64,000 nt of DNA from an uncultured Gemmatimonadota bacterium (GTDB lineage Bacteria; JAAXHH01). This document shows, piece by piece, positions 1 to 52,099 of this stretch. The notes beneath the pieces are model-generated. The model was not told where the DNA came from and searched no databases. It saw only the letters and a program-made list of their open reading frames with translations. The first letter of the stretch is position 1. Each line of letters begins with the position of its first letter. The stretch spans positions 1,952,001-2,016,000 of the forward strand of contig OX638340.1 of assembly GCA_951812955.1 (NCBI GenBank). The letters run 5' to 3'. Made by a program: the position numbers and the translations under genes.

Positions 1-244
1 TTACTCGATGAGGGCGATCAAGTTTTTAACCACAGGCGACCGGTCCCGATGGCGTTCAAGATGCCATAGTGGACCAGCTCTACGAGCAGATCGGACGCTT
101 GAAGATGGAACTGAAGTGGCTAAAAAAGTTGCCCTTTCAACGCGTCACAGACGCCTGATGATCGATGTCGATACGCCTCGGCTTTCCATACGCTGTCATT
201 GCGAACTGATGGATCTTTCAAGGTCCAGCTTCTACCAAGAATAG
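1..244 (+). mobile_element. IS3-family transposase remnant: 3' end of orfA (frame ending at the TGA at 156-158), A_AAA_AAG slippery heptamer at 122-128, and only the first ~38 codons of the -1 frame orfB before a stop at 242-244
   Basis: The orfA-frame translation '...DQLYEQIGRLKMELKWLKKLPFQ' is the leucine-zipper C-terminus typical of IS3 OrfA. The -1 frame gives 'RLSIRCHCELMDLSRSSFYQE', which matches the conserved IS3 OrfB N-terminus (L-S-x-R-x-x-C-E-L-L-G-x-S-R-S-x-Y-Y). The canonical A6G frameshift motif sits exactly between the two frames. orfB is cut off where the sequence turns AT-rich. Confidence 0.55.
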
Positions 245-273
245 GACTTGCATAACATTAGCATGTCGGGCAG

Positions 274-1062
274 TTACAATGTATTACGGATCCTGTTCGC
301 TATACACTTGAATACCCATTCATTAGGATGGAGTTCATCATCCCAGAAATTCTTGTAATGACCTGGACTGTTACTAAGAAGATCACGAACATCTACGTAA
401 CGTACATAGTCATAGTTTACTGCCAACAACTGAAGCATTTCGTTGAACTTGTCTATCAGTACCTCCATCACCCTGGTAGCAAACCAAAGGTCATCGTGAC
501 TTTTTTTAATATTGTATCCCTTTTTCCTGAATACCGGATAGAGCCAAGGCCCCTTTACCTTTATCCAAAACTTGAACTTGCGTCCATCGGGAACTGGGTG
601 GCCATATCCATGGACGATTATCGGAATATCACTTTGGGGCCAATACACTAAACAAGCTCCCCTTATAACTTCGATAAGTTGCGAGTAGTAAGTACGAAGA
701 TAGCAGAATATCATTTTCTGGACTTCATTCGTGTCTAACGCACTATTTACATCTGATGCTGATGTACGATCGTTAAGCATTTTCTTCAGCTTCTTTGTCA
801 GATCATTGCCGCCACCGGAGAGGAGGACTGCTTTGGGTTTGCTATTGAGTTTGTGTAGTTTTTGTAGTTTTTTAAGAAGGGCTTTGTGTTGTTCTTGTGC
901 ATAGGCCATATCCTTGAGCGTGTCACCGTGTTTAGCTACACTTCTCACTTTGTATCCCATGCCCCTTAACCCCTCTAATACATCATCAGCTTGATTTGTA
1001 GAGTTTGGCAAATCGAACCATGAATCACCCTCCGCTACCAAGATTGGTTTTTGATTTGGCAT
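274..1062 (-). CDS. SGNH/GDSL-family hydrolase (lipase/esterase-like) in an AT-rich (~40% GC) islet
   Basis: Block I 'EGDSWFD' (GDS-x), block III 'SGGGNDL' and block V 'DDELHP' (DxxH) are present in the expected order. Composition is strongly atypical versus the ~65% GC of the rest of the window. Confidence 0.6.
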   Translation of the reverse strand: MPNQKPILVAEGDSWFDLPNSTNQADDVLEGLRGMGYKVRSVAKHGDTLKDMAYAQEQHKALLKKLQKLHKLNSKPKAVLLSGGGNDLTKKLKKMLNDRTSASDVNSALDTNEVQKMIFCYLRTYYSQLIEVIRGACLVYWPQSDIPIIVHGYGHPVPDGRKFKFWIKVKGPWLYPVFRKKGYNIKKSHDDLWFATRVMEVLIDKFNEMLQLLAVNYDYVRYVDVRDLLSNSPGHYKNFWDDELHPNEWVFKCIANRIRNTL

Positions 1063-1184
1063 GTTAGTTCTCCTCTATAGGTGGATTACTATAGGAACCT
1101 CTGATCAAGTCTACCCGCCCCGGGGAAGCTGATGTCACTCATCTTTCGCGGACGGTTTACGGTTAGATATTCAGATTGATTCCT

Positions 1185-1532
1185 TTAGTACAGATCGACC
1201 CGGAAGGCGCCTCGCGTCAAGGCCTCCTGCAGTCTCGTCTGGTGGCTGCGATGACGCGGATGTCCGATGATACTGCCCGGACGCTTCCCAAGGGACGATA
1301 GGTCTTCTCGGAGAGGACCCGCAGCGTGGATCGCCTTGGCGATCAGTTCCTTGCCGGCCCCCGTTTCGCCCGTGATCAATACGGGCATATCCTTTGATGC
1401 GTAACGGTAGGCTCTCGCCGGGATCCATTTCATCTCGTGGCTCCTGTGCTTGATCGCATCGAAGGCGCCGTGCGCTTCATGCCCTTGCGCTGGTTCCGGC
1501 GGATTCTGGCTCGTCATCAGGGAGTACGCCAT
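1185..1532 (-). pseudogene. Fragment of a sigma-54-dependent (NtrC-family AAA+) transcriptional activator, truncated and decayed
   Basis: The 115-aa ORF contains the Walker A region 'VLITGETGAGKELIAKAIH' of the sigma54-interaction domain. It has no N-terminal receiver/sensor domain. After the P-loop the sequence degenerates ('...GHPRHRSHQTRLQEALTRGAFR' loosely recalls ELFGHEKGAFTGA) and ends early. There is no C-terminal HTH. Confidence 0.45.
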
Positions 1533-1860
1533 GGTTGCTCCGGATTAAGGCAGGTAAACCTAGCAAAAATCGGACCCGGTATTTTCGTGTTTTTCATGTA
1601 AAGTGGTATGAATTACAATATGATGGAAAAAGAGTGACTTGTGTGTGAATTATCCGCTCAGCAAGAAGAATATTGCGCGAATTTTACGCATAGTGTATCA
1701 TATCGCCATCACGGCCAGCTCTCGATCGGCCTCCGGCGGGCATTCCAGCGCGTCCGCCCAACCTGAGCGTTTCACCCTCAGAAGGCGATCTATCCGGCCG
1801 GCCTCCGACGGGCGTTCCGGCGAGTCGACCTCCGGCCGCAGGAGCGCCGCATGCCGCAGG

Positions 1861-1899
1861 GATCACGGGCAAGGGTCACGGGCAAGGGTCACGGGAAGG
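1861..1899. repeat. Three tandem 13-bp direct repeats (GaTCACGGGCAAG / GGTCACGGGCAAG / GGTCACGGGAAGG) 30-70 bp upstream of the HK-RR fusion gene
   Basis: Read directly from the sequence. Further short direct repeats lie at 1729-1756/1800-1826 (GGCCTCCGrCGGGCrTTCC) and 1927-1937/1945-1955 (CGGTGAAGCGT). Confidence 0.7.
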
Positions 1900-1929
1900 A
1901 TGGATCTGTGACACGGAAAGGATGGACCG

Positions 1930-4305
1930 GTGAAGCGTGATACATCGGTGAAGCGTAAAGACGGACCGGGGCGGGAGATCGAGGCGCTGCGCGAACGCAT
2001 CTCGATGCTGAGCGCGGCAAGCCTGCGCATCAGCGCGAGCCTGGACCTGGAGACCGTCCTGCACGAGGTCATCAACAGCGCCCGCGCGCTGATCGAGGCT
2101 CGTTACGGCGGCATCGTCACCATCGACGAGTCCGGGCAGCCCCGGGACTTCATCACCTCCGGTTTCACCGACGCGGAGCACCGCCAAATGGCCGACTGGC
2201 CCGACGGGCCCAGGCTCTTCGAGCACTTCCGCGACCTCAAGGGCGTGCTGAGACTGCCGGATGCGCGCGCCTACGTGCGCTCGCTCGGCTTCGCCTCGGA
2301 CCGGCTGTCGTCCGGCACCTTCCTGGGCACCCCGATGCGCCATCGCGGCCTGCACGTCGGCAACTTCTATCTCGTCGAGAAGGAAGGCGGAGCGGAGTTC
2401 ACCAGCGAGGACGAGGAGATCCTGGTGCTGTTCGCCTCCCAGGCTGCGACGGCCATCGCCAATGCCCGCACGTACCAGGCCGAGCAGCGCGCCCGGGCCG
2501 ACCTGGAGGCCCTGGTCGAGACCTCGCCGGTGGGCGTCCTGGTCTTCGATGCCGGGACCGGCCGGCTCATGTCGTCCAATCAGGAGGCGAAGCGGATCGT
2601 GGAGGGCCTGCGCATGCCGGGCCGTCCCATGGAGGCGCTGCAGGAGGTGATCACCTGCCGGCGCGCCGACGGGCGCGAGATCGCACTGGAGAAGTTGCCC
2701 CTGTCGCAGGTGCTGAACCGCACCGAGACGGTCCGGGCCGAGGAGATGGTGCTCTCGGTCCCCGACGGACGAAGCGTCACGGCGCTGATCAATTCCACGC
2801 CGATCCACTCGGAGCAAGGCGCTGTCGTGTCCGTTGTGGTCACCATGCAGGACCTGGCGCCGCTACAGGAACTGGAGCGATTACGGGCGGAGTTCCTTGG
2901 CCTGGTGAGTCATGAGTTGCGCACCCCGCTCACGTCGATCAAGGGCTCGGCGGCCACGCTGCTGGATGCCGCCCCGAAACTCGACCCGGCGGAGATGCGC
3001 GAGTTCTGCCGCATCATCCTCTCGCAGGCCGATCACATGCGCGTCCTGATCAGCGACCTGCTGGACGCGGGCCGCATCGACACGGGCACGCTGTCGGTGA
3101 CGCCCGAGCCCTCCGAGGTCGCCGCCCTGGTGGACCGGGCGCGGACCACGTTCCAGAGCGGCGGCGGCAGGCACCCCGTACTGATCGACCTGCCGCCCGA
3201 TCTGCCACGGGTCATGGCCGACCGGCAGCGCATCGAACAAGTGCTGAACAACCTGTTCGCCAATGCCGCGCGGCACGCTCCCGAGTCCTCTCCCATCAGG
3301 GTCTCCGGGGCGCGCGACGGGGTGCATGTCGCGGTCACGGTACGCGACGAAGGCGCGGGAGTAGCGCCCGACCGGCTCCCGCATCTCTTTCGGAAATATG
3401 CCGGGCTCGAGGGCGGCGACCGCGAGTCCGGGGCTGCCGGCTCGGGGCTCGGTCTGGCCATCTGCAAAGGGCTGGTCGAAACTCACGGAGGGCGTATCCG
3501 GGCCGAAAGTCCGGGCATGGGCCAGGGCACGCGCATCACCTTCACGATCCCGGTAGCCGCCGAGGCCGCCGAGGCCGCCCGAGAGCCGGTTCGTACCGAC
3601 CCGCAAGACACCGGAGAAACTGGCGAGCCGACGCGCATCCTCGTGGTCGACGACGACCCGCAGACGCTACGCTACGTGCGCGAAGCGCTCACGGCGGCCG
3701 GCTACTCCGCGCTCGTGACCAGCAACCATGACGAACTGGCGAGCATTATACACGCCGAGCGACCCGAACTGGTCCTGCTGGACCTGCTGCTGCCCGGCAC
3801 GGACGGTATAGCGTTGATGGAACGCCTGCCCGAACTGGCCGAACTTCCGGTCATCTTCATCTCCGCCTACGGACGGGACGAGACCATCGCGCGGGCGCTC
3901 GATACCGGCGCCGCCGACTACCTCGTCAAGCCCTTCTCGACGACCGAGCTCGTGGCGCGGATCCGGGCGGCGCTGCACAGACGGGCCGATCCCGACCCCT
4001 TCGTGCTGGGCGAACTCGCCATCCACTACGATCGGCGAAGGGTGAGCACAGGCGGTGTACGGGTCGACCTCACCGCCACCGAGTATGAGCTGCTGCGCGT
4101 CCTCTCGCTCAACGCGGGACGGGTTTTGACCTTCGCCACCCTGATGCGCCAGGTCTGGGGTACGCGCGCCTACGCCAATCCGAAGCTCGTGCGCGCCTTC
4201 GTCAAGAAGCTCCGCCACAAGCTCGGCGACAATGCAGACAAGCCTATCTACATCTTCAACGAGCGCGGGGTCGGCTACCGAATGGCCCAGCCGGCCGAAT
4301 CGTAG
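1930..4305 (+). CDS. Hybrid sensor histidine kinase fused to a complete OmpR-type response regulator (GAF - PAS - HisKA - HATPase_c - REC - winged-helix Trans_reg_C)
   Basis: The H-box is 'LVSHELRTPLTSIKGSA'. ATPase motifs are 'NLFANAARH', 'VRDEGAGV' and 'GSGLGLAICKGLVE'. The receiver 'ILVVDDDPQ...LVLLDLLLPGTDG...YLVKPF' has the acidic pocket and the Lys. The C-terminus 'LTATEYELLRVLSLNAGRVLTFATLMRQVWG...YIFNERGVGYRM' is an OmpR/PhoB wHTH. A GTG start was chosen by the ORF track; an in-frame Met start further downstream is possible. Confidence 0.8.
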   Translation: MKRDTSVKRKDGPGREIEALRERISMLSAASLRISASLDLETVLHEVINSARALIEARYGGIVTIDESGQPRDFITSGFTDAEHRQMADWPDGPRLFEHFRDLKGVLRLPDARAYVRSLGFASDRLSSGTFLGTPMRHRGLHVGNFYLVEKEGGAEFTSEDEEILVLFASQAATAIANARTYQAEQRARADLEALVETSPVGVLVFDAGTGRLMSSNQEAKRIVEGLRMPGRPMEALQEVITCRRADGREIALEKLPLSQVLNRTETVRAEEMVLSVPDGRSVTALINSTPIHSEQGAVVSVVVTMQDLAPLQELERLRAEFLGLVSHELRTPLTSIKGSAATLLDAAPKLDPAEMREFCRIILSQADHMRVLISDLLDAGRIDTGTLSVTPEPSEVAALVDRARTTFQSGGGRHPVLIDLPPDLPRVMADRQRIEQVLNNLFANAARHAPESSPIRVSGARDGVHVAVTVRDEGAGVAPDRLPHLFRKYAGLEGGDRESGAAGSGLGLAICKGLVETHGGRIRAESPGMGQGTRITFTIPVAAEAAEAAREPVRTDPQDTGETGEPTRILVVDDDPQTLRYVREALTAAGYSALVTSNHDELASIIHAERPELVLLDLLLPGTDGIALMERLPELAELPVIFISAYGRDETIARALDTGAADYLVKPFSTTELVARIRAALHRRADPDPFVLGELAIHYDRRRVSTGGVRVDLTATEYELLRVLSLNAGRVLTFATLMRQVWGTRAYANPKLVRAFVKKLRHKLGDNADKPIYIFNERGVGYRMAQPAES

Positions 4306-4388
4306 ACACCTTCTGTTTCCCGGCAAGGCGAGCAGGACGCGAAGAGCGGAGATCAGAGTCCCTCAGGGAAGGCAAAAGTCCGCAGCCT

Positions 4389-5201
4389 TTAAACCCGCTT
4401 CTTCCGACCCACCAGGACCAGGTTCGCCGGCATTTTCTCAAGCGGCGCGCCGCCCTCCCAGTCCTGGTTCCCGTCACCGTACTCCTCCACGGCCAGGAGT
4501 TCGCATCCACTCTCGATCAGCGCGCGGATCATGTCCGAAACGGTCCAGTGGAATTCATAACTGGGGAGCGGACTGGGCGGTCCTTGGCGTCCTTGCGTAC
4601 CGGACGGCCCCGCACCCTCGGGCAGTTCCTCTGACCGGTCATAGGTAAAGGGACCGTGGTCGAAGTAATGATATTCCTGTTTCAGCGGCCCGGCGTCGAG
4701 TTTCCATAGCCTGCGGAACGGATGGTACTCGTTGACCATGAAGAGTCCGCCGTGTTTGAGAATCCGGATTCCCTCGCCGTAGTAGCGCTGCAGGTCGGAC
4801 ACCCAGACAGCAACGTGGCCTCCCGTGTAAACGATGTCGAAATGATCGTCCGGCAGTTCGTGCAGATCAGTCACGTCAGCCTGGAGAAACCGGATCGAGA
4901 GTCCAAGCTCACCCGCTCTTCCGGCGGCGATATCCAGCTGGGTCTGCGATATATCCACGGAGGTGACCCGCGCCCCGGCACCGGCCAGGGCAAAGGCCGC
5001 CAGGTTGTCTCCGCTGCCGAGCACGCAGACGGACCTTCCGGATACCTCGCCGAGGTATTTCAATTCGACGGCGTCCAGCACAAGATGGATGTTGTCCGGG
5101 ATGCTCCGCCAGTCCACCCTGGCGTCGATCTCCGCCTGCCATCCGGCGGAAACGGCGTCCCAGCCCCTGCGATTCGCCTCGTGCATGGGATGCTGGCTCA
5201 T
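4389..5201 (-). CDS. Class I SAM-dependent methyltransferase
   Basis: Motif I 'VCVLGSGDNLAAFALAGAGARVTSVDIS' is present, along with a post-I acidic residue and an overall Rossmann MTase layout. Confidence 0.6.
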   Translation of the reverse strand: MSQHPMHEANRRGWDAVSAGWQAEIDARVDWRSIPDNIHLVLDAVELKYLGEVSGRSVCVLGSGDNLAAFALAGAGARVTSVDISQTQLDIAAGRAGELGLSIRFLQADVTDLHELPDDHFDIVYTGGHVAVWVSDLQRYYGEGIRILKHGGLFMVNEYHPFRRLWKLDAGPLKQEYHYFDHGPFTYDRSEELPEGAGPSGTQGRQGPPSPLPSYEFHWTVSDMIRALIESGCELLAVEEYGDGNQDWEGGAPLEKMPANLVLVGRKKRV

Positions 5202-5374
5202 TTACTTAAATCCTCCCAGCGACATCGATCCGCCCAGAGCTCTCCCGATTCAGGCACGCTGGTTCAGGGCCCTCCCGGTTCAGGCTCTCCCGCTCAGGGC
5301 CCGCTCGAGTCAGGGTCCGCCTGGCTTGACCCAGGTACTCCCGACTCAGGCACGCAGCCTCAGGTCCGCGCGGC

Positions 5375-6157
5375 TCAGACTCTCCTGGCTACCCACACTT
5401 GCTCATGTCCATGCCGGAACGGTCCGCGTCGGAAGTCGCCGTATAGTGCCTCGACTTCGTAGCCACATACTTCGAGGAGGTACTGCATTTCGAAACGGTG
5501 CACGTAGCGCAGGTGTAGCGGGGTGGCAGTCTTCGAAAGTACACGGCCCTCGTCGTCCACTTCCTCGAAGAACCGGTGTTCCTCCAGCGTCTGCTCCAAC
5601 GGATCGTACCGGCGCGTATCCGATACCATGACGCGGCGTCCCGTTTCAGGATGCACGATCGATTCCATGTAATTGATGGTACCGGAAGGTCTCGACATGT
5701 ACGCCGCGATGATCTCGATGCTCGGATCGAAGATGTTGAACACCAGGCGCCCTTGCTCCGTCAGGTGTTCTCGGATGCGGGTCAAGGCCCGCCGCTGGTC
5801 GTCGGGGGTCATCATGTGAAGGAACGCGCGGTACGGTATGATGGCCAGCGGGAAACGCCGTTCCAGGCTGAATGTCCGCATATCGCCTTCGACGATCTGA
5901 ATGCGCCGCTGTGTATCGTCCGGCAGCGCGTCGATCTTCCGACGCGCCACATCCAGCATCGCCGGCGCCCGATCCAGTCCGACGATGGACGTACCCGACT
6001 CGGCGATCGGGATCGTGATCCGGCCGGTTCCGCAACCGATTTCCAGCACGGGGCCGTCCGCCCTGGCGGCTTCTTCCACGTAGAATGCCTCGTCGCCTTC
6101 GAGCCCCGTCGAGTAGCTGTCGTATATCCCGGCGTCCGTCCTGTCGTATTCTGACAT
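5375..6157 (-). CDS. Class I SAM-dependent methyltransferase (second, adjacent paralog-like)
   Basis: Motif I is 'VLEIGCGTGRITIPIAESGTSIVGLDRAPAML', and motif II 'IQIVEGDM' is present. Confidence 0.6.
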   Translation of the reverse strand: MSEYDRTDAGIYDSYSTGLEGDEAFYVEEAARADGPVLEIGCGTGRITIPIAESGTSIVGLDRAPAMLDVARRKIDALPDDTQRRIQIVEGDMRTFSLERRFPLAIIPYRAFLHMMTPDDQRRALTRIREHLTEQGRLVFNIFDPSIEIIAAYMSRPSGTINYMESIVHPETGRRVMVSDTRRYDPLEQTLEEHRFFEEVDDEGRVLSKTATPLHLRYVHRFEMQYLLEVCGYEVEALYGDFRRGPFRHGHEQVWVARRV

Positions 6158-6383
6158 GTCCTGCCCTCCCGGAAAACTGGCTTTATCTTTGCCAAATCAC
6201 TTGTATGCGCAACGTCATTGCTACAGCACACCATGCTGGATGCAGGATACCCGCGATCCACTTCCAGCGTACCGAACTCGTTATACCAAATTATACCGGT
6301 TGATTTCGCTATTGTCCCGGTTTTACTTCAGTTGAAGTCTGCCCAATTGCCTACATCAGTCACGCCACGGCCAAGGATCATTT

Positions 6384-7346
6384 ATGCCAGACCGACAACG
6401 CATTGTAATACCCGGTGACGATCCGCCCCAGATGCAGGGATCACCCCACCTGGAACGCCTTGAGGCTTACGGAGAAGTCGTCCTGTACACCGATCGTCCC
6501 GAGACTTCTGATGAGAAAATCGAGCGGGTCAAGGGCGCCGGGGTGATGATCAATTCCCGGGGACTCGTCAAATGGCCCGGTGACGTCCTGCGTTCGCTGC
6601 CGGATCTCCGCATGATCGCGACTTGTTCGATCGGCGTCGACAGTTTCGATCTTGTCGCGGCGCGGGAATGCGGCATCGCCATATCCAACCAACCGGGACG
6701 GACGGCGCCGGTCGTGGCGGAACATACCTTCGGCCTGATGTTCGCCCTCGCGAAGAGAGCGGCGTACTTCACGGGCGCCATGAAAGCCGGCCAATGGCCG
6801 CGACTGGACGCCTACTACCTAAAGGGGAAGACGCTCGGGGTCATCGGAACGGGTCCAATCGGATCGGAGTTGGCGAAGCTGGCGGGCAGCGTGGGGATGG
6901 ACGTGATCGCCTGGACGTACAACCCGTCGGACGAAAGGGCCAGGGAGATCGGGGCGGCCTACGTGGAACTCGACGAACTATTGAGCAGGTCGGACGTGGT
7001 GTCGCTGCATGTCAGGCTTACGGAGGATAGCAGGCACATGATCGACAGTGCATCGCTGGGAAGCATGAAACCGGGCGCGCTGCTGATCAACTGCGGCCGG
7101 GGAGGCCTGGTGGATACGGACGCGCTGGTGGAAGCGCTGAGCTCGGGGCATCTGGGCGGCGCAGCCCTGGACGTCTTCGAGGAAGAGCCCCTGCCCGCGG
7201 ATCATCCCCTGCTCGGCATGGAGCAGGTCGTGCTCACCCCGCACTGCGCGGACATGACGCCCGAAGGGGTCGAACTGCTCAACGAAGGCGCGGTGGACAA
7301 CGTCATCGCATTTCTCGAAGGTCGTCCCCGGAACCTGGTGGTCTGA
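6384..7346 (+). CDS. D-isomer-specific 2-hydroxyacid dehydrogenase family (phosphoglycerate dehydrogenase/hydroxypyruvate reductase-like)
   Basis: The NAD-binding motif is 'GKTLGVIGTGPIGSELAKLAG'. The catalytic region is 'LINCGRGGLVDTDALVEAL ... LDVFEEEP ... LTPHCA' (His/Glu/Arg triad context). Confidence 0.75.
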   Translation: MPDRQRIVIPGDDPPQMQGSPHLERLEAYGEVVLYTDRPETSDEKIERVKGAGVMINSRGLVKWPGDVLRSLPDLRMIATCSIGVDSFDLVAARECGIAISNQPGRTAPVVAEHTFGLMFALAKRAAYFTGAMKAGQWPRLDAYYLKGKTLGVIGTGPIGSELAKLAGSVGMDVIAWTYNPSDERAREIGAAYVELDELLSRSDVVSLHVRLTEDSRHMIDSASLGSMKPGALLINCGRGGLVDTDALVEALSSGHLGGAALDVFEEEPLPADHPLLGMEQVVLTPHCADMTPEGVELLNEGAVDNVIAFLEGRPRNLVV

Positions 7347-7403
7347 GTGGTCTGCGTGGTCTGAGCAATCCGCGGTACGCAGTGGTCCGAAAACCGGTAC
7401 CGG

Positions 7404-7805
7404 TCACTCCGGCGCCCGGTGCCGCAACTCCCGGCCCTTGTCCGGGGTGGGGTCCTCGACCATACCATACATCTGCCGGCCCTCGTGGTCCTCGGGAAGA
7501 TACTCCGTGATCGGCAGTCCCTCGGGTGTCACGAATAGCAGGCAGTGACAGTACTTCCAGATCTTCATCTCGTCGCAGGCGCAGACCCATTCGCGGCTGC
7601 GTTCCAGTTCGGCCTTCTTGTCGGGATAGAAATTGCACGGGCACAGGGGCCGTCCCAGTTCGTCCACGTGGGCGGCGAGCCCCTTGACCACGGAATCCTT
7701 CACTTCCGCGTTCGGATGGGGCGAGGTGCCGGTTTTCTCCCAATACTTCTCGCAGTATTTCTCCATGCGCCGCATGCTTTTCTCGGAAGGTTGCTGTTCG
7801 TTCAT
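7404..7805 (-). CDS. Ferredoxin-thioredoxin reductase catalytic (beta) subunit-like protein
   Basis: The spacing 'LCPCNFY...WVCACDEMKIWKYCHCLLF' reproduces the CPC / CxC / CHC signature of FTR catalytic subunits (FeThRed_B). Size is 133 aa. Confidence 0.65.
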   Translation of the reverse strand: MNEQQPSEKSMRRMEKYCEKYWEKTGTSPHPNAEVKDSVVKGLAAHVDELGRPLCPCNFYPDKKAELERSREWVCACDEMKIWKYCHCLLFVTPEGLPITEYLPEDHEGRQMYGMVEDPTPDKGRELRHRAPE

Positions 7806-8061
7806 TTACCGCTCCTTGTATGGGTAACGCTTCCCGGTACTCCTACAGATCGTCGGCCCTTTCAATCTGAATATAATCTATTCTTACCTCCCCTTCATGT
7901 CAATCGGTCCGTGCCAGGATCCGTGGAATGACAGCGCCCTGAAAAACCGCGCCGGGAATTGCGAATCCGCAGAACGATTTGCAGTCCGCGAAGCCGACGA
8001 GTCGTCGAAAATCCCCGCCGACAGACTCGTCGTCAAAAAACCAATTTTTTGTGGATTTGTA

Positions 8062-8090
8062 TTGACTTTGTTAGCGACGCGGCATATCGT
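8062..8090 (+). promoter_or_regulatory. Candidate sigma70-type promoter for the act operon (TTGACT-N17-TATCGT); an inverted repeat (7994-8034) and TTTGTCGA direct repeats lie nearby
   Basis: Sequence match only, ~70 bp upstream of actA. No experimental support. Confidence 0.25.
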
Positions 8091-8158
8091 GTACAACTGT
8101 TTGTCGAATACCGTTCATTTGTCGAGAAACGTAACAGAAAGAGATAGAACGAGTTCTT

Positions 8159-47477: not shown

Positions 47478-49759
47478 GGTTTTCTCCTGTCGAGCGCCAT
47501 AAGCAGCGGAGGAAGAAGCAGAAAATCGGCTATGATCGCAAATGCGATGGTAATGGTCACCAGCAGTCCGAGGGCCCATGACACCTGGAATCCCGACCCC
47601 GCGAAGGCCAGGAAGCCCGCGGAAAGGACCAGTGTCGTGGTCCACAGCGCCTTCCCCACGGATCGGAAGGTAACACGCACCGCTTCTTCCGCCGACAGAC
47701 CTTCCTCTTTGCGCGCCTTGAGGTACCTGCTGAGAAAGTGGATCGTATCGTCCACGACGATGCCGAATGCGACGACGATGACCACCGATGAGGCGATGCC
47801 CACTTCGCCGACCAGGTGTCCCCAGAGCCCAAAGCTCATGGCTGCCGGTACGAAATTGGGCAGCAGACTGATGAGACCGAACCGGATACTCTTGAAGACC
47901 ACGACCAGGATGATCGATATGAACGCCATGGCGACCACCGTTCCGCGCAGCATCGATTCGATATTGCGCTGGGAGATATGGGCGAACACCACATTGAGTC
48001 CGGTGGCTTCGGTGGCAAGGGCCGGGGCGTTTTCGCGGAGCCAGGCCTCCCCCCGACTGGCCAGGTCCTGCAGATCCTGACTCGACCGGCCGCGAATCAC
48101 GACCGTCATGCGCGTTGCGGACCTGGAAACATCGATCCGGTCGTTCAGGTCGCTGCCGAAGGGCAGAGACAATTCGTAGAGCAGCAGGTACTGCGAGGCA
48201 AGATCCTGTGCTTCGGGAATACGGAAGAAGGCCGGATCGTCTCCGTGCATGTTCTTGTTCAACCGTTTCATGATGTCCGAGAAGGCCTGCACGTGGCCCA
48301 CTTCAGGCTGACCCCGGTTCCATTCCGCGAAAGCCTCCACCTGACGGAGGTAATCAGGATCGGTGATCCCGCCTTCTTCCTCCGCGGCCAACGTATACTC
48401 GAAGGACAGCAATCCGGTCAGGTTTTCCATGACGAAATCCGTATCCCGCCGGAACTCGTAGCGTTCATCGAAGTAGTCCGGCCAACTGTCGGTCAGGTGG
48501 TTCCTGGGCACGCCGGTGATCAGGACGACTGTCAACAGCCCTACGGACCAAAGCAGCGGTTTTCGCCGAGAAACGACGAAATCACCCAGGCGATCGAAGA
48601 AGACAGGTTGCCGGGAACCAGCGGCACGGGCCCGCAGCGGAAGGACCGAAAGCAGCGCAGGAAGGAGCGTCATGGCGTAGACGTAGGTGATCATCACCCC
48701 GAAGGCCACGAAATTGCCGAGAATGTGAAACGGTGGCGAATCAGAGAAGTTCAGGCTGAGAAAACCGATCGCGGTGGTGATCGAGGCCAGGAACACCGGG
48801 TAGGCATTTGTTCTAATGGATTTCGCGACCGCCTCGTTCCGTTCCGCTCCGTCTCTAATCCCCGTCAGTGTATGCGTGATGATGTGTACCGCCTGGGCGA
48901 CGGAAATCGCCATGACAATAATGGGCACCCCTGAATTTACCGGACTGAAAACCGTATGGAACCAACCGGCGAACCCCATGGTCGTCGAGATCACGAAGCC
49001 TATCATGACGATGATGATGCCTGTTCCCAGAAAGGATCTCAGGAGTAAGGTCGAGGTGATCAGGATGAGGACGAAAACGATGGGCAGCAGGGTTTCAAGG
49101 TCGTCTTGGGTGGCATCGGCGAAGGCCCGGTTCATGACCACGTCGCCCGTCAGGTAGAAATCAACGTCGGGAGCGTCCACCCGTGCATCCTCCAGCATGA
49201 TGTCCAGGTAATCGGTGAGCTCCTTGACCGCCAGGTCCGGATCATCGCCCATTACGAAGTTGATCGCCAGTCCGGCCACCCGTCCGTCAGGAGAAACGAG
49301 TCGCCCCACCACTTCCTGGGAACCCAGCGCGATCGACTCGATTCGAACCAGGTCGGTATCGCTCAGCGACGCGGCGTCTTCAACAAGCGGTCCGACGATG
49401 AGATCATCTTCCATCGCCTCGCTGTGGAAGTAATTCGTGAGGGAATTTACCCGGGTGGAATATGGAGCGAGCCAGGCGGCTTCGGTAAGCGCTTCGACGA
49501 CACCCAGCGCATCGCGGGTGAAGACGGAACCGGTCCGGGGCGCGATGGCGACCAGGGCGGTATTGGAGGCAGCGTAGGTGTCCTCCAGCGCGTCGAAGGC
49601 GGCGAGTTGCGGATTGTCCTCGCCGAACATGACGCGATGTTCGTTGGAGACGGTTATGAAACGGCTACCGGCCGCCATGGCGAGCATGAATGCCAGCGAG
49701 AATACAATCACCAACCATCGGTGACGGAGTACCACGACGGTGTAACGGTCGAGATTCAA
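47474..49759 (-). CDS. RND-superfamily exporter (COG1033/MMPL-type, two 6-TM halves each with a periplasmic loop)
   Basis: A 761-aa protein with TM1 followed by a large loop, then a TM2-6 cluster, repeated twice. It has the conserved 'GIVVDD(T/A)IH' type motif ('GIVVDDTIHFLSRY'). Confidence 0.75.
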   Translation of the reverse strand: MNLDRYTVVVLRHRWLVIVFSLAFMLAMAAGSRFITVSNEHRVMFGEDNPQLAAFDALEDTYAASNTALVAIAPRTGSVFTRDALGVVEALTEAAWLAPYSTRVNSLTNYFHSEAMEDDLIVGPLVEDAASLSDTDLVRIESIALGSQEVVGRLVSPDGRVAGLAINFVMGDDPDLAVKELTDYLDIMLEDARVDAPDVDFYLTGDVVMNRAFADATQDDLETLLPIVFVLILITSTLLLRSFLGTGIIIVMIGFVISTTMGFAGWFHTVFSPVNSGVPIIVMAISVAQAVHIITHTLTGIRDGAERNEAVAKSIRTNAYPVFLASITTAIGFLSLNFSDSPPFHILGNFVAFGVMITYVYAMTLLPALLSVLPLRARAAGSRQPVFFDRLGDFVVSRRKPLLWSVGLLTVVLITGVPRNHLTDSWPDYFDERYEFRRDTDFVMENLTGLLSFEYTLAAEEEGGITDPDYLRQVEAFAEWNRGQPEVGHVQAFSDIMKRLNKNMHGDDPAFFRIPEAQDLASQYLLLYELSLPFGSDLNDRIDVSRSATRMTVVIRGRSSQDLQDLASRGEAWLRENAPALATEATGLNVVFAHISQRNIESMLRGTVVAMAFISIILVVVFKSIRFGLISLLPNFVPAAMSFGLWGHLVGEVGIASSVVIVVAFGIVVDDTIHFLSRYLKARKEEGLSAEEAVRVTFRSVGKALWTTTLVLSAGFLAFAGSGFQVSWALGLLVTITIAFAIIADFLLLPPLLMALDRRKP

Positions 49760-50472
49760 AAATGCGGCCCCTCTGTTTTATTCGTCCTTCGCAATGGTAA
49801 TTTAGTTCATACTAACGTAATATACACCACTGTATTGTCAAGATTTCAGATTTAAATCGAGTTTATTCCTAAATTCCCGACTAATACATTATGGCGTTTG
49901 TATCGCCTTTATTTTCGCCAATCACTGCACACGTGTACATTCAGAATTTAACTGGAAGCGCATCTCGGGTCAATATTAACCAGCTATACGGCTGATCTGA
50001 ATGTACGACTGATCGGTGCGAACGGTGTGGTGGGCTTTCACCATGCACAATACTGGTCCAGGTTGCACCGTAATTAAACTAGTAACCGGTCTGCCCCGAC
50101 GAGGCGCCACGGGGCCGTTACCGGTTTGCACTGCGAAGATAAAGCAGCACCGGAGTTCCGGTCTGCTCTTCGATGCATTTAGGCGTGTACCATCTACCGC
50201 CTCAAAAAGTACAGATTGAACGCTGTTGTGTCCGCGTCGGCCGTGAATGGAACAGGGTTCGATCCCAATATCCCGTCAAGTCGAGTCAACCATCGGCCAT
50301 TGTATCCTTGAGCTGGCGGAGCGGCAACCAGGTTGTCCATTCGCAGGCTCAGGATAGCGGAGTTCTCTTCCCCGGAGATCCCGGGAATACATCCGTGATG
50401 GATACATCAGACGCGCCTGATCGGCCCTGTGCGTTCAGGCGCCTTCAGTGGAAAGGCAGCTACTTTGAAACC

Positions 50473-51180
50473 ATGAACACGCAATCAAAAAGCCCAGGAG
50501 ACGTCAATCTGATACACGCCTGCCTTGAGGGTCGATCAGATGCGCAGAGTCAACTCTACAATCTTTACTTCACACAGGACAAGCCTGTTCACTTCTGGGT
50601 ATACCAGAAAGCATACTGGATTCCAGCAGGTGAAAAGGAGGATATCCTGAATGATATCTACATCGCGGTCATTCAAAGCCTGCCCCAGTTCGAATTTCGC
50701 AGTGCATTGGGCACCTATATTACCCGCATTGCAAAGATCAAGTGCCTGGACGCAATGCCTTCTCGGCTAGGCGTCGCCCGGGGGAAGGGGATCAAGTTCG
50801 TCGATATCGACTGGTTCGCATCGAACAACGAGTCAGGGTTTCAGATCGAAGACACGGATCCCAACAACAGACCGGACCGGTATTTGAGACAAAGGGAAGA
50901 AGAAGAACTGGTTTTCCTGTTGCATACGGCCCTGAAGTACTTTACGGGACAGCGATGCAGGAATGTCCTCTACATGTACGTCAAAGAACTCAGAGGCGAA
51001 ATGAGCAGGGAGGACATTGCGGAATCGCTCGGAGTACCGGTTAAACGCATGGGACAGATGATCTACGACTGCATGTATCGGCTTCGCCGTAAGGTACAAA
51101 GTAGATTTCGAGATTACGAACATTTTGCCAATTGCGTATGTGAAGGTATTCAACGTCCCAAACCCAATAACAAGGAGTAG
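50473..51180 (+). CDS. ECF-type sigma-70 family RNA polymerase sigma factor (low-GC gene)
   Basis: Region 2 is 'ILNDIYIAVIQSLPQFEF'. The region 4 HTH is 'MSREDIAESLGVPVKRMGQMIYDCMYRLRRK'. Start was set at the internal Met. The surrounding DNA is ~50% GC. Confidence 0.65.
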   Translation: MNTQSKSPGDVNLIHACLEGRSDAQSQLYNLYFTQDKPVHFWVYQKAYWIPAGEKEDILNDIYIAVIQSLPQFEFRSALGTYITRIAKIKCLDAMPSRLGVARGKGIKFVDIDWFASNNESGFQIEDTDPNNRPDRYLRQREEEELVFLLHTALKYFTGQRCRNVLYMYVKELRGEMSREDIAESLGVPVKRMGQMIYDCMYRLRRKVQSRFRDYEHFANCVCEGIQRPKPNNKE

Positions 51181-51182
51181 CC

Positions 51183-51869
51183 ATGCATCAGCGAGTTGCG
51201 GGGCGCGGCAACTTCGACAGTTTGCCGGATCGTACTCAGATCGCTGACCTCCTGCGAAAATACTGTGAGCTGCTGGTTTCTTCATGTCCTACCTCGGAAA
51301 CACTGTTGGTATTTCATGAAGATCCGAATCAGCTTCCCACATGCGAGAGAAAGACCCTGGGAGGGCACCTTGGAATCTGTCTCGACTGCAGGGACAAACT
51401 TCGATGGCTGGAGGAATCTGAAGCTTCGTCCTATACCGATTCCATCGCACGTGTAATCTGGTATATGCTCAATGTACACCATCCATCCGAGGTGGCAGCC
51501 TCAAAGTACTTCTCATCCGCCAGGAGTGCAGGCAATCCCGACTCGCTTTCCACACAGAATTTGCAACCGGATGCTGCAAAAACGGCCACAACCCGCAAGA
51601 CTTCGGCGCCTTTTTTCGCCAGCGGGGATGGAGCGTTGTGTGGGGAAATCCATCAGGACAGGAATCAACGGGTGTATTTAAGGATTTTTCGGCTGCCCAG
51701 GTCGTTTCAGTGGCATGCCCTGCATATTCGAGCAATAACGTTTGACCGTCGCGTACTGGTGAGCAGGTCCAGGACCATATCGGGACCGAAATTCCCGATC
51801 GATCATCCTCCTCGCATTACGCCCGGTGACATGGACAAGGTCGAACTCGGTCTGATCCCGCTGCGTTGA
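51183..51869 (+). CDS. Putative soluble zinc-binding anti-sigma factor
   Basis: It starts 2 nt after the sigma stop. The N-terminus 'CPTSE...H...CERK...HLGICLDC' gives a C/H/C/H/C/C cluster resembling ZAS/ChrR-type anti-sigma domains. No TM segment is visible. Confidence 0.4.
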   Translation: MHQRVAGRGNFDSLPDRTQIADLLRKYCELLVSSCPTSETLLVFHEDPNQLPTCERKTLGGHLGICLDCRDKLRWLEESEASSYTDSIARVIWYMLNVHHPSEVAASKYFSSARSAGNPDSLSTQNLQPDAAKTATTRKTSAPFFASGDGALCGEIHQDRNQRVYLRIFRLPRSFQWHALHIRAITFDRRVLVSRSRTISGPKFPIDHPPRITPGDMDKVELGLIPLR

Positions 51870-51879
51870 GCGGGATCAG
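51852..51879 (+). terminator. Perfect 11-bp inverted repeat hairpin (CTGATCCCGCT-GCGTTG-AGCGGGATCAG) spanning the anti-sigma stop codon
   Basis: Read from the sequence. There is no U-tract, so an intrinsic terminator is uncertain. A second hairpin lies at 51991-52015 (ATGCGCGAAGC-AGG-GCTTCGCGCAT). Confidence 0.3.
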
Positions 51880-52099
51880 CGCCGTTCCGGTGTATTCGAC
51901 CGGATTCCACTGGTTGTTTGCGGTACGTAACCCAGGCAATAAGATGTTGACAATCGACTGGGGGCGAGTACGTTACGAAGTATCTGAATGATGCGCGAAG
52001 CAGGCTTCGCGCATATACGGAATTGGAGGAATACCGGTACCTTCAAACCGGCCGGGTCGATGATCCCGCCATGGTACCGTCCATGAAGGAACCAACTGC

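What the first reader, a model, noticed from the sequence alone, without database searches (positions are those of the whole stretch)
1..1540. IS3-family remnant, AT-rich SGNH hydrolase islet and a decayed sigma54-activator fragment: scar of a mobile-element-mediated insertion
The first 244 nt retain the IS3 OrfA C-terminus, an intact A_AAA_AAG -1 frameshift heptamer and the first ~38 codons of OrfB, but OrfB stops exactly where base composition drops to ~40% GC. The SGNH/GDSL hydrolase gene (all three catalytic blocks intact) sits in that AT-rich stretch on the opposite strand. Immediately beyond it is a 115-aa sigma54-activator fragment that has the Walker A motif but lacks both N- and C-terminal domains. 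Together this looks like a foreign cargo gene delivered or stranded by IS activity, which truncated a resident NtrC-type regulator gene.
Basis: partly seen in the sequence, partly recalled or inferred. Interest (0 to 1): 0.5.

Follow-up and report, generated by a model that had tools for sequence, protein, structure and literature searches.

The report
Variable gene slot: hydrolase, dead neighbours
The first 1.5 kb of this window is the edge of a strain-variable gene slot in an uncultured bacterium, where an intact, AT-rich esterase-type gene sits between a dead insertion-sequence stub and a dead regulator gene; this is an ordinary genomic scar, although the esterase gene changes unusually fast.

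Summary
Window 1-244 is an IS3-family stub with an intact A_AAA_AAG heptamer. Window 274-1062 (- strand) is an intact 262-aa SGNH/GDSL hydrolase at about 42% GC. Window 1185-1532 (- strand) is a 115-aa piece of a sigma54-activator-type AAA+ gene.

The proposed history is only partly right. Two independent metagenome assemblies, 96% identical and colinear with the window, carry the same junctions and show what lies beyond window position 1. The IS3 piece there is a relic of about 460 nt. Two AT-rich ORFans, a second decaying IS3 and a NotI restriction-modification system follow it.

More distant relatives hold a hydrolase homologue at the same position (57% and 51% aa identity, same 42% GC3) without that IS relic. 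One of them has a nearly intact regulator. Another strain has two DUF1353 genes and an MmeI system in the slot instead.

The regulator is a resident partner of the neighbouring histidine-kinase gene, 343 aa when intact, with no N-terminal domain. It has decayed independently in three lineages. In the window it carries a 209-nt internal deletion, a 1-nt deletion and an 821-nt 3' deletion, and none of these lies at an IS end.

Interest is low to moderate.

The parts
1..244 (+). Distal 244 nt of a ~460-nt IS3-family relic. It holds the OrfA C-terminal part, split over two frames by a frameshift near 40-70, and the first ~38 codons of OrfB ending at stop 242-244. The rve/DDE domain and the right inverted repeat are absent.
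   Evidence: translations. (NCBIfam transpos_IS3 positions 62-119 and 3-119 of 369). (40-44% aa identity to annotated IS3 transposases such as ISGlo6-like). (L081 shows the rest: OrfA with HTH_Tnp_1 and a putative IRL).
122..128 (+). A_AAA_AAG programmed -1 frameshift heptamer, intact and in the correct zero frame (CTA AAA AAG).
   Evidence: frame 3 reads ...WLKK, and frame 2 continues KKVALS... from the same A-run.
245..273 (.). A 29-nt junction between the truncated OrfB and the hydrolase stop codon. The breakpoint of the deletion that removed the rest of the IS lies in or beside this stretch.
   Evidence: The stretch is identical in L081/L082 and absent from L083 and L084.
274..1062 (-). 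Intact 262-aa cytoplasmic SGNH/GDSL hydrolase, 'allele A'. GC is 41.6% and GC3 43%. There is no signal peptide, and the ~60-aa N-terminal extension seen in distant homologues is missing.
557..896 (-). Fast-changing core of the hydrolase gene. Against L081 it carries 13 substitutions, almost all non-synonymous, and three in-frame indels of 12, 6 and 9 nt. The 12-nt indel falls in one of the two lower-confidence parts of the model (residues 161-170).
   Evidence: positions of the differences; dN 0.023, dS 0.003; pLDDT dips at residues 21-30 and 161-170.
1063..1185 (-). A 123-nt hydrolase leader with a Shine-Dalgarno sequence (GAGGAGAA, its last base 7 nt before the ATG). It is about 65% alignable to the last 125 nt upstream of allele B in L083. 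No sigma70-like or sigma54-like promoter match was found.
1185..1532 (-). Pseudogene of a PspF-type (AAA+ plus HTH_8, no sensor domain) enhancer-binding-protein homologue. It retains residues 1-71 (1532-1320), residues 140-170 out of frame (1324-1232) and residues 171-183 (1232-1190) of a 343-aa protein.
   Evidence: Intact or near-intact relatives are in L089 (343 aa) and L083 (306 aa).
1320..1326 (.). Junction of the 209-nt internal deletion. Relative to L083 8705-8913 it removes Walker B and the GAFTGA-loop region and shifts the frame.
   Evidence: three-way alignment. Shared with L081/L082, absent from L083 and L084.
1184..1187 (.). Junction of the 821-nt deletion (L083 9055-9875). It removed the last 463 nt of the regulator gene and 358 nt of the spacer before the hydrolase. 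Nucleotide identity to L083 switches here from about 92% to about 67%.
1533..1947 (.). Divergent intergenic region between the regulator pseudogene and the kinase gene. It has an AT-rich part at 1540-1700 with sigma70-like hexamer pairs, and a repeat-rich part at 1856-1990 (CACGGGCAAGGGT units, copy number variable between strains).
1948..4305 (+). Conserved flank: a hybrid histidine kinase / response regulator (GAF-PAS-HisKA-HATPase-REC-OmpR type DNA-binding domain, 785 aa). It is 98-99.7% identical in L081, L083 and L090.

Best explanation
Window 1-1540 is the inner edge of a strain-variable cargo slot in the chromosome of an uncultured bacterium. NCBI labels related MAGs Gemmatimonadota. 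The slot lies between two conserved blocks. On one side is a hybrid histidine-kinase gene with its divergently transcribed PspF-type AAA+ regulator. On the other side is a rhodanese / AAA_14-DUF4143 block.

In the window's lineage the slot holds, in order: the SGNH hydrolase, a ~460-nt IS3 relic, two AT-rich ORFans, a second decaying IS3 of another subgroup, and a NotI restriction-modification pair. Everything after the first 244 nt of the relic lies outside the window.

Shown. The hydrolase is a long-standing occupant of the position next to the regulator, because three divergent alleles sit at the same place in different lineages. The IS relic is present only in allele-A genomes.

Inferred. 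The IS3 relic inserted later, downstream of the hydrolase, and was then cut down by a deletion that ended 29 nt from the hydrolase stop codon.

Shown. The regulator was inactivated by ordinary deletions: 209 nt internal, 1 nt, and 821 nt that removed its 3' end plus most of the spacer. It was not inactivated by an IS insertion. The same regulator has been eroded independently in sister lineages.

Inferred. The regulator is dispensable in this clade, and repeated cargo turnover next to its 3' end wears it away. The hydrolase remains an active esterase/acyl-hydrolase, since its ORF, catalytic residues and fold are all intact. With no promoter match in its 123-nt leader, it is probably transcribed by read-through from the regulator's old promoter region (window about 1620-1725, - strand). 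It is evolving under relaxed or diversifying selection.
For: 1. Shared junctions. Window 1-11102 is colinear with L081/L082 1-11047 at 96.3% identity, including every junction in 1-1540. L081 and L082 come from two different samples, so this is not an assembly artefact.

2. Beyond window position 1. L081 continues with the frameshifted OrfA (HTH_Tnp_1), a putative IRL, ORFans of 175 and 307 aa (GC 46-47%), a different IS3 (orfA plus rve orfB), NotI and a D12 methyltransferase.

3. L083. The order is kinase, then a 306-aa regulator with AAA+, lid and HTH_8, then a 483-nt spacer, then hydrolase allele B (57% aa). The second IS3 follows directly, with no relic and no ORFans.

4. L084. The order is kinase, a 176-aa regulator fragment with different deletions, hydrolase allele C (51% aa), then MmeI fragments.

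5. L090. The flanks are the same, but the slot holds an intact MmeI, a 125-aa ORF, two DUF1353 genes and regulator fragments covering residues 1-24, 177-296 and 306-342.

6. L089. An intact 343-aa regulator is divergent from the kinase orthologue and has the same 22-aa leader.

7. Composition and divergence. All three hydrolase alleles have GC3 0.42-0.43, against 0.73-0.87 for neighbouring genes. dS between alleles is 0.69-1.07, against 0.55-0.72 for background genes in the same genome pairs.

8. Hydrolase integrity.

9. Hydrolase rate of change. Window against L081 gives dN/dS of about 7, with about 13 non-synonymous and about 0.5 synonymous differences plus 3 in-frame indels. The adjacent pseudogenes differ by only 1-3 substitutions.

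10. Promoters. No sigma54 or sigma70 promoter match lies in 1063-1185. Sigma70-like matches on the - strand lie at 1725-1697 and 1649-1620.
Against: The DNA upstream of window position 1 is inferred from L081/L082, not read from the source genome.

The order of events (hydrolase first, IS later) rests on parsimony over five loci without a phylogeny.

The deletion that truncated OrfB next to the hydrolase could itself have been transposase-mediated. An IS that once sat at the regulator junction and was later fully deleted cannot be excluded.

The unchanged 42% GC3 of all three alleles, despite dS of about 0.7-1.0, fits poorly with long residence in a GC-rich genome. It is easier to explain by repeated import. 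The 92% to 67% identity switch sits exactly at the 821-nt deletion junction, which is also what a cassette replacement would produce.

Read-through transcription is inference only.

dN/dS above 1 rests on about 14 substitutions and is not significant on its own.
Confidence: 0.65

Rival explanations
1. An IS3 element delivered or stranded the hydrolase as foreign cargo, and the same event truncated the resident regulator.
For: The hydrolase is compositionally foreign. An IS3 stub lies 29 nt from its stop codon. The regulator's 3' end is missing exactly where the AT-rich block starts.
Against: Hydrolase homologues are syntenic in L083 and L084, which lack this relic. The relic is on the opposite side of the hydrolase from the regulator, and its inward end is a truncated OrfB, not an inverted repeat. 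No IS end is found at any regulator lesion, and one lesion is an internal 209-nt deletion. The regulator also decays in L090 and L084, which carry other cargo. IS3 elements are not known to carry passenger genes (general knowledge of the family).
Confidence: 0.08
2. Cassette exchange. The three hydrolase alleles did not diverge in place. Each was imported separately from an AT-rich external gene pool into the same slot, replacing earlier cargo. In the window lineage the incoming piece (hydrolase A, IS relic, ORFans) replaced the regulator's 3' end, the spacer and an older allele.
For: GC3 is 0.42-0.43 in all alleles, with no sign of amelioration despite dS of 0.7-1.07. Identity to L083 drops from 92% to 67% exactly at window 1185/1186 and recovers to 93% exactly at the left end of the second IS3. 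Other cargo in the slot is also AT-rich and strain-specific: DUF1353 genes at 41-43% GC and ORFans at 46-47%. NotI and MmeI systems alternate in the slot.
Against: No donor is known. After the 92% (L081/L082), 57% (L083) and 51% (L084) homologues in the related genomes, the next-best homologue is 45% identical and sits in an unrelated context. dS between alleles is close to the genome background for the same pairs, 0.55-0.72, so vertical descent with recombination-homogenised flanks fits as well. The leader just upstream of the ATG is still alignable between A and B up to the deletion junction, as a plain deletion predicts. L083 against L084 shows a gradient (98, 90, 83, 76, 71%) rather than a sharp cassette edge.
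Confidence: 0.3
3. The hydrolase is a defence or conflict effector of a chromosomal defence hotspot, kept diverse by selection from phages or other mobile elements.
For: It sits beside alternating restriction-modification systems (NotI, MmeI) and a PADLOC candidate defence gene, PDC-S01. It has strain-specific alleles, an excess of non-synonymous changes and in-frame loop indels between near-identical strains. Distant homologues often neighbour peptidases with no evident signal peptide: S8 in 14 of 80 loci, astacin-like in 11 of 80, and trypsin-like.
Against: There is no PADLOC hit for any allele and only one weak PHROG hit of unknown function. A literature search found no paper among its top-ranked hits that mentions SGNH hydrolases together with defence islands. 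The excess of non-synonymous change is equally explained by relaxed constraint. One strain simply lacks the gene. Only five loci were examined.
Confidence: 0.1
4. Assembly or binning artefact: a chimeric join at a repeated IS.
For: IS elements and sharp GC changes are typical places for misassembly. The window starts inside the IS.
Against: The same junctions, base for base, occur in two further assemblies from different samples and assemblers (L081 from ERZ15614337, L082 from ERZ23495265). No second copy of the IS exists in the window.
Confidence: 0.02

Closest known systems
IS3-family insertion sequences (two-ORF, -1 frameshift type such as IS911; the nearest annotated relatives are ISGlo6-like IS3 transposases)
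   Same: OrfA has an HTH plus a leucine-zipper-like C-terminus. The A_AAA_AAG slippery heptamer is present. The OrfB N-terminal HTH_21-type region follows in the -1 frame. Identity to annotated IS3 transposases is 40-44% aa. The putative IRL starts with TG and contains CAAAAACTGG, which I recall as resembling the IS911 end (the resemblance is from memory).
   Different: Only model positions 3-119 of 369 survive. OrfA is frameshifted. There is no DDE/rve domain, no right inverted repeat and no target duplication to check. It cannot transpose.
SGNH/GDSL hydrolases (for example EstL5 8ik1, Geobacillus GDSL esterase 7e16, E. coli TesA/TAP 1ivn, PAF-acetylhydrolase 1bwq)
   Same: The fold matches (Foldseek E 2e-9 to 1e-5, TM 0.5-0.7). 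Block I GDS serine, block II Gly, block III GGND and block V His are all present.
   Different: Identity to any solved structure is only 11-17%, and there is no sequence-level PDB hit. The family has extra long helices (residues 111-140 and 189-216). Its consensus has N-E-L-H where D-x-x-H is usual, with an invariant Glu next to the acid position. The substrate is unknown. The clade studied here lacks the ~60-aa N-terminal extension of most family members.
Bacterial enhancer-binding proteins of PspF architecture, and the AAA+/HTH part of RtcR-like regulators (PADLOC RtcR_PspF2--CARF_AAA_HTH)
   Same: The intact relatives have the Sigma54_activat AAA+ domain, AAA_lid_14 and HTH_8. They have no receiver or sensor domain, like PspF. 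The best profile matches are to RtcR-type AAA+.
   Different: There is no CARF domain. No equivalog cut-off is reached. GAFTGA reads GAHADA in L089 and GSTRTP in L083, so contact with sigma54 is doubtful even for intact copies (the motif's role is from established knowledge of bEBPs). The window copy is a pseudogene.
Chromosomal defence or cargo hotspots between conserved core genes (as described for Pseudomonas aeruginosa in PMC10250203 and for E. coli in PMC10121019)
   Same: The flanks are conserved. The cargo is strain-specific, AT-rich and includes alternating restriction-modification systems. IS debris is present, and an edge gene has been eroded.
   Different: Only five loci from metagenome assemblies were compared. 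No integrase or att site was identified. Whether the hydrolase takes part in defence is unknown.

Membership tests
IS3 family insertion sequence | OrfA with an N-terminal HTH (HTH_Tnp_1) | tested here: met
   The HTH is not inside the window. In the colinear L081 10979-11263 it hits HTH_Tnp_1 at E 9.8e-5, 22.9 bits, just under the 24.1 cut-off. The rebuilt peptide matches transpos_IS3 positions 3-119, E 4.1e-13.
IS3 family insertion sequence | Programmed -1 frameshift signal (A_AAA_AAG) joining OrfA and OrfB | tested here: met
   Window 122-128, in the correct frames.
IS3 family insertion sequence | OrfB with an rve (DDE) catalytic domain | tested here: not met
   OrfB stops after about 38 codons at window 244, and the hydrolase gene follows. 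The element is a relic, not a functional member.
IS3 family insertion sequence | Terminal inverted repeats (TG...CA) and 3-5 bp target duplications | tested here: inconclusive
   A putative IRL, TGTAATTGGCCTCAAAAACTGG, lies at L081 11267. The right end is deleted, so neither the repeat pair nor the duplication can be checked.
SGNH/GDSL hydrolase superfamily | Block I GDS with the nucleophilic Ser | tested here: met
   G12-D13-S14 are invariant in 48 sequences.
SGNH/GDSL hydrolase superfamily | Block II Gly and block III GxND (oxyanion hole) | tested here: met
   G46 is conserved in at least 90% of sequences. G84, G85 and D87 are invariant, and N86 is conserved in at least 90%.
SGNH/GDSL hydrolase superfamily | Block V DxxH | tested here: met
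   The window protein has D242-E-L-H245. H245 and E243 are invariant. The family consensus has N at 242, so the acid may be E243 in most members.
SGNH/GDSL hydrolase superfamily | Three-layer alpha/beta/alpha flavodoxin-like fold | tested here: met
   AF2 pLDDT is 94.2 and pTM 0.91. All of the top 50 PDB matches are SGNH/GDSL enzymes, best E 2e-9.
SGNH/GDSL hydrolase superfamily | Esterase / acyl-hydrolase activity | not testable with these tools
   This needs expression and assays with pNP-esters and O-acetylated substrates.
Sigma54-dependent enhancer-binding protein (bEBP) | AAA+ domain with Walker A | tested here: met
   GETGAGKE is present. PF00158 positions 3-47 match at E 3.5e-10.
Sigma54-dependent enhancer-binding protein (bEBP) | Walker B and the rest of the AAA+ core | tested here: not met
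   Removed by the 209-nt deletion. The remainder is out of frame or deleted.
Sigma54-dependent enhancer-binding protein (bEBP) | GAFTGA loop that contacts sigma54 | tested here: not met
   Deleted in the window. It reads GAHADA in the intact L089 orthologue and GSTRTP in L083.
Sigma54-dependent enhancer-binding protein (bEBP) | C-terminal HTH_8 DNA-binding domain | tested here: not met
   Absent from the window because of the 821-nt deletion. Present in L083 (HTH_8 E 1.2e-5) and in L089.
Sigma54-dependent enhancer-binding protein (bEBP) | A sigma54 promoter (TGGCAC-N5-TTGC) at a neighbouring target gene | tested here: not met
   No match lies upstream of the hydrolase. Window-wide matches number 18, against 23 expected by chance.
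NtrC-type response regulator | N-terminal receiver domain | tested here: not met
   The intact orthologues (343 aa) start with a 22-aa leader directly before the AAA+ domain. No receiver exists in this family.
Known anti-phage defence system component | Match to a PADLOC model | tested here: not met
   Hydrolase alleles A and B gave no hit. The neighbours do hit: the D12 methyltransferase, PDC-S01, and the RtcR_PspF2 AAA+ part.

The most novel reading that the evidence does not exclude
The AT-rich SGNH hydrolase may be an undescribed, diversifying conflict or defence gene that marks the inner edge of a chromosomal defence hotspot. It would be kept as divergent alleles next to interchangeable restriction-modification systems, with its substrate-facing loops under positive selection. 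It may originally have been controlled by the adjacent GAFTGA-less AAA+ regulator.
Probability: 0.1. Interest if true: 0.55.

Novelty: new member of a known kind. Interest (0 to 1): 0.25.

Why it matters
The main value is as a correction. A pattern that looks like 'an IS dropped a foreign gene and broke a regulator' turns out, once relatives are compared, to be the worn edge of a recombining cargo slot. The foreign-looking gene is older at the site than the IS stub, and the regulator was lost by plain deletions.

Two points have some wider use. First, an uncharacterised and widespread SGNH subfamily (more than 2000 relatives) appears here as three allelic forms with unchanged low GC, an excess of amino-acid changes and loop indels. 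That makes it a reasonable candidate for a functional test. Second, the kinase and NotI-side flanks are 93% identical between genomes whose background is about 81% identical. That is a clear example of recent lateral exchange around a restriction-modification slot in an uncultured lineage.

Tried and rejected
- Exact look-up of the window's hydrolase in the assembly index found nothing on record.
- The GTDB-representative genome scan gave only distant homologues, at most 44% identical, so the source species is not among the representatives.
- No second copy of the IS or of any part of 1-1700 exists elsewhere in the window.
- Exact-match scans of JGI metagenome contigs for the OrfB/hydrolase junction and for the heptamer region gave 0 hits each. 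No intact copy of this IS type was found, so its full length and right end stay unknown.
- A sequence search of the PDB with the hydrolase gave no meaningful hit.
- PADLOC and PHROGs gave nothing informative for the hydrolase or the ORFans.
- A sigma54 promoter upstream of the hydrolase was sought and not found.
- A conserved regulator-hydrolase gene pair was considered and rejected. Only 2 of 80 distant hydrolase loci have such an AAA+ gene within 10 kb.
- The ~90-nt direct repeat at window 1888-1990 and L081 16147-16234 was considered as att-like island boundaries. This was rejected as a general boundary because the second copy is absent from L090, which has the same flanks.
- The HK homologues at 85% identity (L086-L088) sit in a different context and were set aside as probable paralogues.
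- A literature search for SGNH hydrolases in defence islands returned nothing relevant.
Full report
**Observation**

- **IS3 stub.** Window 1-244 translates in frame 3 to an IS3 OrfA C-terminus (IVDQLYEQIGRLKMELKWLKK). From the A-run, frame 2 gives an OrfB N-terminus (KKVALSTRHRRLMIDVDTPRLSIRCHCELMDLSRSSFYQE*) that stops at 244. The heptamer A_AAA_AAG lies at 122-128 in the correct zero frame. The fused peptide matches NCBIfam transpos_IS3 positions 62-119 of 369. The first 66 nt (LLDEGDQVFNHRRPVPMAFKMP*) belong to OrfA but are in a third frame, so OrfA carries a frameshift mutation.
- **Base composition.** GC drops from 0.515 to 0.41 across the end of OrfB and stays near 0.40-0.45 up to about 1100.
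- **Hydrolase.** Window 274-1062 (- strand) is an open 262-aa ORF that passes the Pfam Lipase_GDSL_2 threshold.
- **Regulator fragment.** Window 1185-1532 (- strand) is a 115-aa ORF. Residues 29-73 match the first 45 positions of the Sigma54_activat domain, including Walker A.

**Relatives that extend and date the locus**

The source genome is not among the GTDB representatives, where the best hydrolase match is 44% identical. It is also not in the exact-match index. A protein search did find a 92%-identical hydrolase (P0001), then homologues at 57% (P0002) and 51% (P0003), then nothing above 45%.

The contigs carrying P0001 are L081 and L082, which come from two different samples. They are colinear with window 1-11102 at 96.3% identity, through every junction in 1-1540. 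This rules out an assembly artefact and lets L081 stand in for the DNA beyond window position 1. Reading outward from the hydrolase in L081, the locus contains:

1. the rest of OrfA (HTH_Tnp_1);
2. a putative left inverted repeat, TGTAATTGGCCTCAAAAACTGG;
3. two ORFans of 175 and 307 aa at 46-47% GC, the first starting 13 nt beyond the repeat;
4. a second IS3 of a different subgroup, itself frameshifted;
5. a NotI endonuclease with a D12 methyltransferase;
6. rhodanese and an AAA_14/DUF4143 gene (PADLOC PDC-S01).

The rebuilt 128-aa N-terminal product of the relic matches transpos_IS3 positions 3-119 of 369. It is 40-44% identical to annotated IS3 transposases on plasmids. The element next to the hydrolase is therefore a relic of about 460 nt: left end, broken OrfA, heptamer and 38 codons of OrfB. 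About two thirds of a normal IS3 is missing, including the DDE domain and the right end.

**The same slot in other lineages**

- **L083.** The order is kinase, then a 306-aa regulator with AAA+, lid and HTH_8, then a 483-nt spacer, then hydrolase allele B. The second IS3, NotI and the rest follow directly, with no relic and no ORFans.
- **L084.** The order is kinase, a 176-aa regulator fragment, hydrolase allele C, then fragments of an MmeI-type enzyme.
- **L090.** The kinase is 98% identical and the rhodanese/AAA_14 flank is the same. It has no hydrolase. The slot holds an intact MmeI gene, a 125-aa ORF, two DUF1353 genes at 41-43% GC, and regulator fragments.
- **L089.** This is a more distant genome (kinase 79% identical). 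It has an intact 343-aa regulator transcribed divergently from the kinase gene, with housekeeping genes beyond it.

Two conclusions follow. The kinase-regulator pair is the resident unit. The DNA beyond the regulator's 3' end is a strain-variable cargo slot.

**The regulator**

The L089 protein starts MATSPMTSPNPPERTQGYEAHGAFDAI..., and the window ORF starts MAYSLMTSQNPPEPAQGHEAHGAFDAI.... The family therefore has no N-terminal sensor or receiver domain, and its architecture is that of PspF. The best profile matches are to the AAA+/HTH part of RtcR-like proteins, but no curated cut-off is reached and there is no CARF domain. The GAFTGA loop reads GAHADA in L089 and GSTRTP in L083. Whether even the intact proteins act through sigma54 is therefore doubtful.

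A three-way alignment shows three lesions in the window copy, all shared with L081/L082:

- a 209-nt internal deletion at window ~1325, which removes Walker B and the loop region and shifts the frame;
- a 1-nt deletion at ~1232, which happens to restore the frame for the last 13 codons;
- an 821-nt deletion at 1185/1186, which removes the last 463 nt of the gene and 358 nt of the spacer.

L084 keeps residues 1-153 and 190-251. L090 keeps residues 1-24, 177-296 and 306-342. That makes three independent decay patterns. No IS end lies at any breakpoint.

**The hydrolase**

A 48-sequence alignment shows G12-D13-S14 invariant and G46 conserved in at least 90% of sequences. G84, G85 and D87 are invariant, and N86 is conserved in at least 90%. 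E243 and H245 are invariant, and the window protein has D242. The AlphaFold2 model is confident, with pLDDT 94.2. All of its top 50 PDB neighbours are SGNH/GDSL enzymes, best EstL5 8ik1 at E 2e-9. There is no sequence-level PDB hit. The protein starts six residues before the first strand, so it has no signal peptide. Most distant family members carry an extra ~60 residues at the N-terminus.

Alleles A, B and C all have GC3 of 0.42-0.43, against 0.73-0.87 for neighbouring genes. Between alleles dS is 0.69-1.07 and dN/dS is 0.33-0.52.

The genome background matters when reading these numbers. Between the window/L081 lineage and L083, ordinary genes have dS of 0.55-0.72 (about 81% nt identity). 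The kinase has dS of 0.04, and the NotI-side flank is 93% identical. The flanks were therefore exchanged recently between lineages, while the hydrolase differs by about as much as the rest of the genome.

Two histories fit this pattern, and I cannot separate them. In one, the hydrolase stayed in place while its flanks were homogenised by recombination. In the other, alleles were swapped in from an AT-rich pool. The unchanged low GC3 favours import. Three observations favour in-place descent followed by a plain deletion:

- the background-like dS;
- the still-alignable leader up to the deletion junction;
- the gradual identity decline between L083 and L084, from 98% through 90, 83 and 76 to 71%.

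Between the window and L081, the hydrolase carries about 13 non-synonymous and about 0.5 synonymous differences (dN/dS about 7). It also has three in-frame indels, all within window 557-896. The adjacent pseudogenes, which should evolve neutrally, differ by only 1-3 substitutions. One indel falls in one of the two lower-confidence parts of the model, residues 161-170. This indicates relaxed or diversifying selection, but the count is too small to decide between them.

**Expression**

The 123-nt leader has a good Shine-Dalgarno sequence but no sigma70-like or sigma54-like promoter match. The nearest - strand promoter-like sites lie upstream of the regulator pseudogene, at 1725-1697 and 1649-1620. 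Read-through from there is my inference. The 821-nt deletion would have shortened that path.

**Is the regulator functionally tied to the hydrolase?**

Probably not as a general rule. Only 2 of 80 distant hydrolase loci have such an AAA+ gene within 10 kb. Instead, distant homologues often neighbour peptidases with no evident signal peptide:

| Neighbour type | Loci out of 80 |
|---|---|
| S8 peptidase | 14 |
| Astacin-like peptidase | 11 |
| Trypsin-like peptidase | 5 + 4 (two clusters, one without a Pfam match) |
| C25-like peptidase | 6 |

I did not pursue this.

**Verdict on the interpretation**

The causal story is not supported.

- The relic sits on the other side of the intact hydrolase from the regulator.
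- The regulator's lesions are ordinary deletions that recur in lineages with other cargo.

The best reading is an ordinary, worn edge of a recombining cargo or defence hotspot.

The most novel reading still open is that the hydrolase is itself a diversifying conflict gene. I put that at about 10%. There was no PADLOC hit, no informative PHROG hit and no supporting literature in the search I ran.

**Taxonomy**

ProRS and kinase relatives at 85-95% identity come from uncultured MAGs, some labelled Gemmatimonadota by NCBI. This is a label carried by related MAGs, not something I tested.

Noticed in passing
window 1856-1990; L081 9129-9216 and 16147-16234; L083 8159-8244 and 14304-14391: A ~90-105-nt direct repeat (83-91% identical). 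One copy covers the 5' end and upstream region of the kinase gene. The other lies upstream of the D12 methyltransferase/NotI operon. It is built from short internal repeats (ACGCTTCAMCG, ATCCTTYCCGTG, CACGGGCAAGGGT). It could be a shared operator for the kinase's own OmpR-type DNA-binding domain. The second copy is absent from L090, so it travels with the NotI cargo.
   Followed up: partly
window 1856-1900 and 1924-1941: The copy number of the 13-nt CACGGGCAAGGGT unit and of an 18-nt unit differs between the window and L081/L083. Window 1751-2000 is the most indel-rich stretch in the comparison (82% identity against 99-100% in the kinase gene).
   Followed up: partly
window 4389-5201 (- strand, 270-aa methyltransferase): This gene has dS 0.37 and 88.5% aa identity between the window and L081, although the adjacent kinase has dS 0.018. 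It is a sharp recombination patch inside otherwise ~99% identical DNA.
   Followed up: partly
window ~1186-5245, and L081 12728-19700 against L083: About 14 kb (methyltransferase, kinase, regulator 5' part, second IS3, NotI R-M, rhodanese, AAA_14) is 93% identical between genomes whose background identity is about 80-82%. This points to recent lateral exchange of the whole neighbourhood, with the hydrolase excepted.
   Followed up: partly
L089 8662-9693; L083 8597-9517: The intact orthologues of the regulator lack a canonical GAFTGA loop (GAHADA and GSTRTP). L089 also has DD instead of DE in Walker B. The family may not act through sigma54 at all.
   Followed up: partly
L001-L080 (distant hydrolase homologues): Most family members have a ~60-aa N-terminal extension without a signal peptide. 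They frequently sit beside peptidases that also show no evident signal peptide: S8 in 14 of 80 loci, astacin-like in 11, C25-like in 6, and trypsin-like in 5 plus 4. This suggests an undescribed multi-hydrolase gene neighbourhood.
   Followed up: partly
L081 11280-11807 and 11795-12718 (just outside the window): Two overlapping AT-rich ORFs (175 and 307 aa) with no Pfam, PADLOC or PHROG match. They are wedged between the left ends of two inverted IS3 elements of different subgroups.
   Followed up: partly
L090 7172-7798 and 7861-8424: In one strain the hydrolase position is occupied by two DUF1353 genes (GC 41-43%). Both match PHROG 1158, which is annotated as a tail assembly chaperone.
   Followed up: no
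window 1930-4305: The hybrid kinase belongs to a very large family. More than 100 database clusters fall at 70-73% identity, and 7994 of the 8000 scored candidates have E below 1e-100.
   Followed up: no
window 21001-23000: A second low-GC patch (GC 0.49-0.50) contains a 355-aa ORF (21519-22586) with collagen-repeat and trypsin-like peptidase domains.
   Followed up: partly
window 49001-52000: A third low-GC patch (GC 0.52-0.54) contains ORFs with at most a weak sigma70 region-2 match. It may be another islet.
   Followed up: no
window 8159-20478: An alternative complex III-like operon (c7-type cytochrome, a 1004-aa QrcB/QrcC-like fusion, an NrfD/DsrP-like subunit) is followed by cytochrome c oxidase subunits I and III. 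The operon is conserved in L081, L083 and L090.
   Followed up: no
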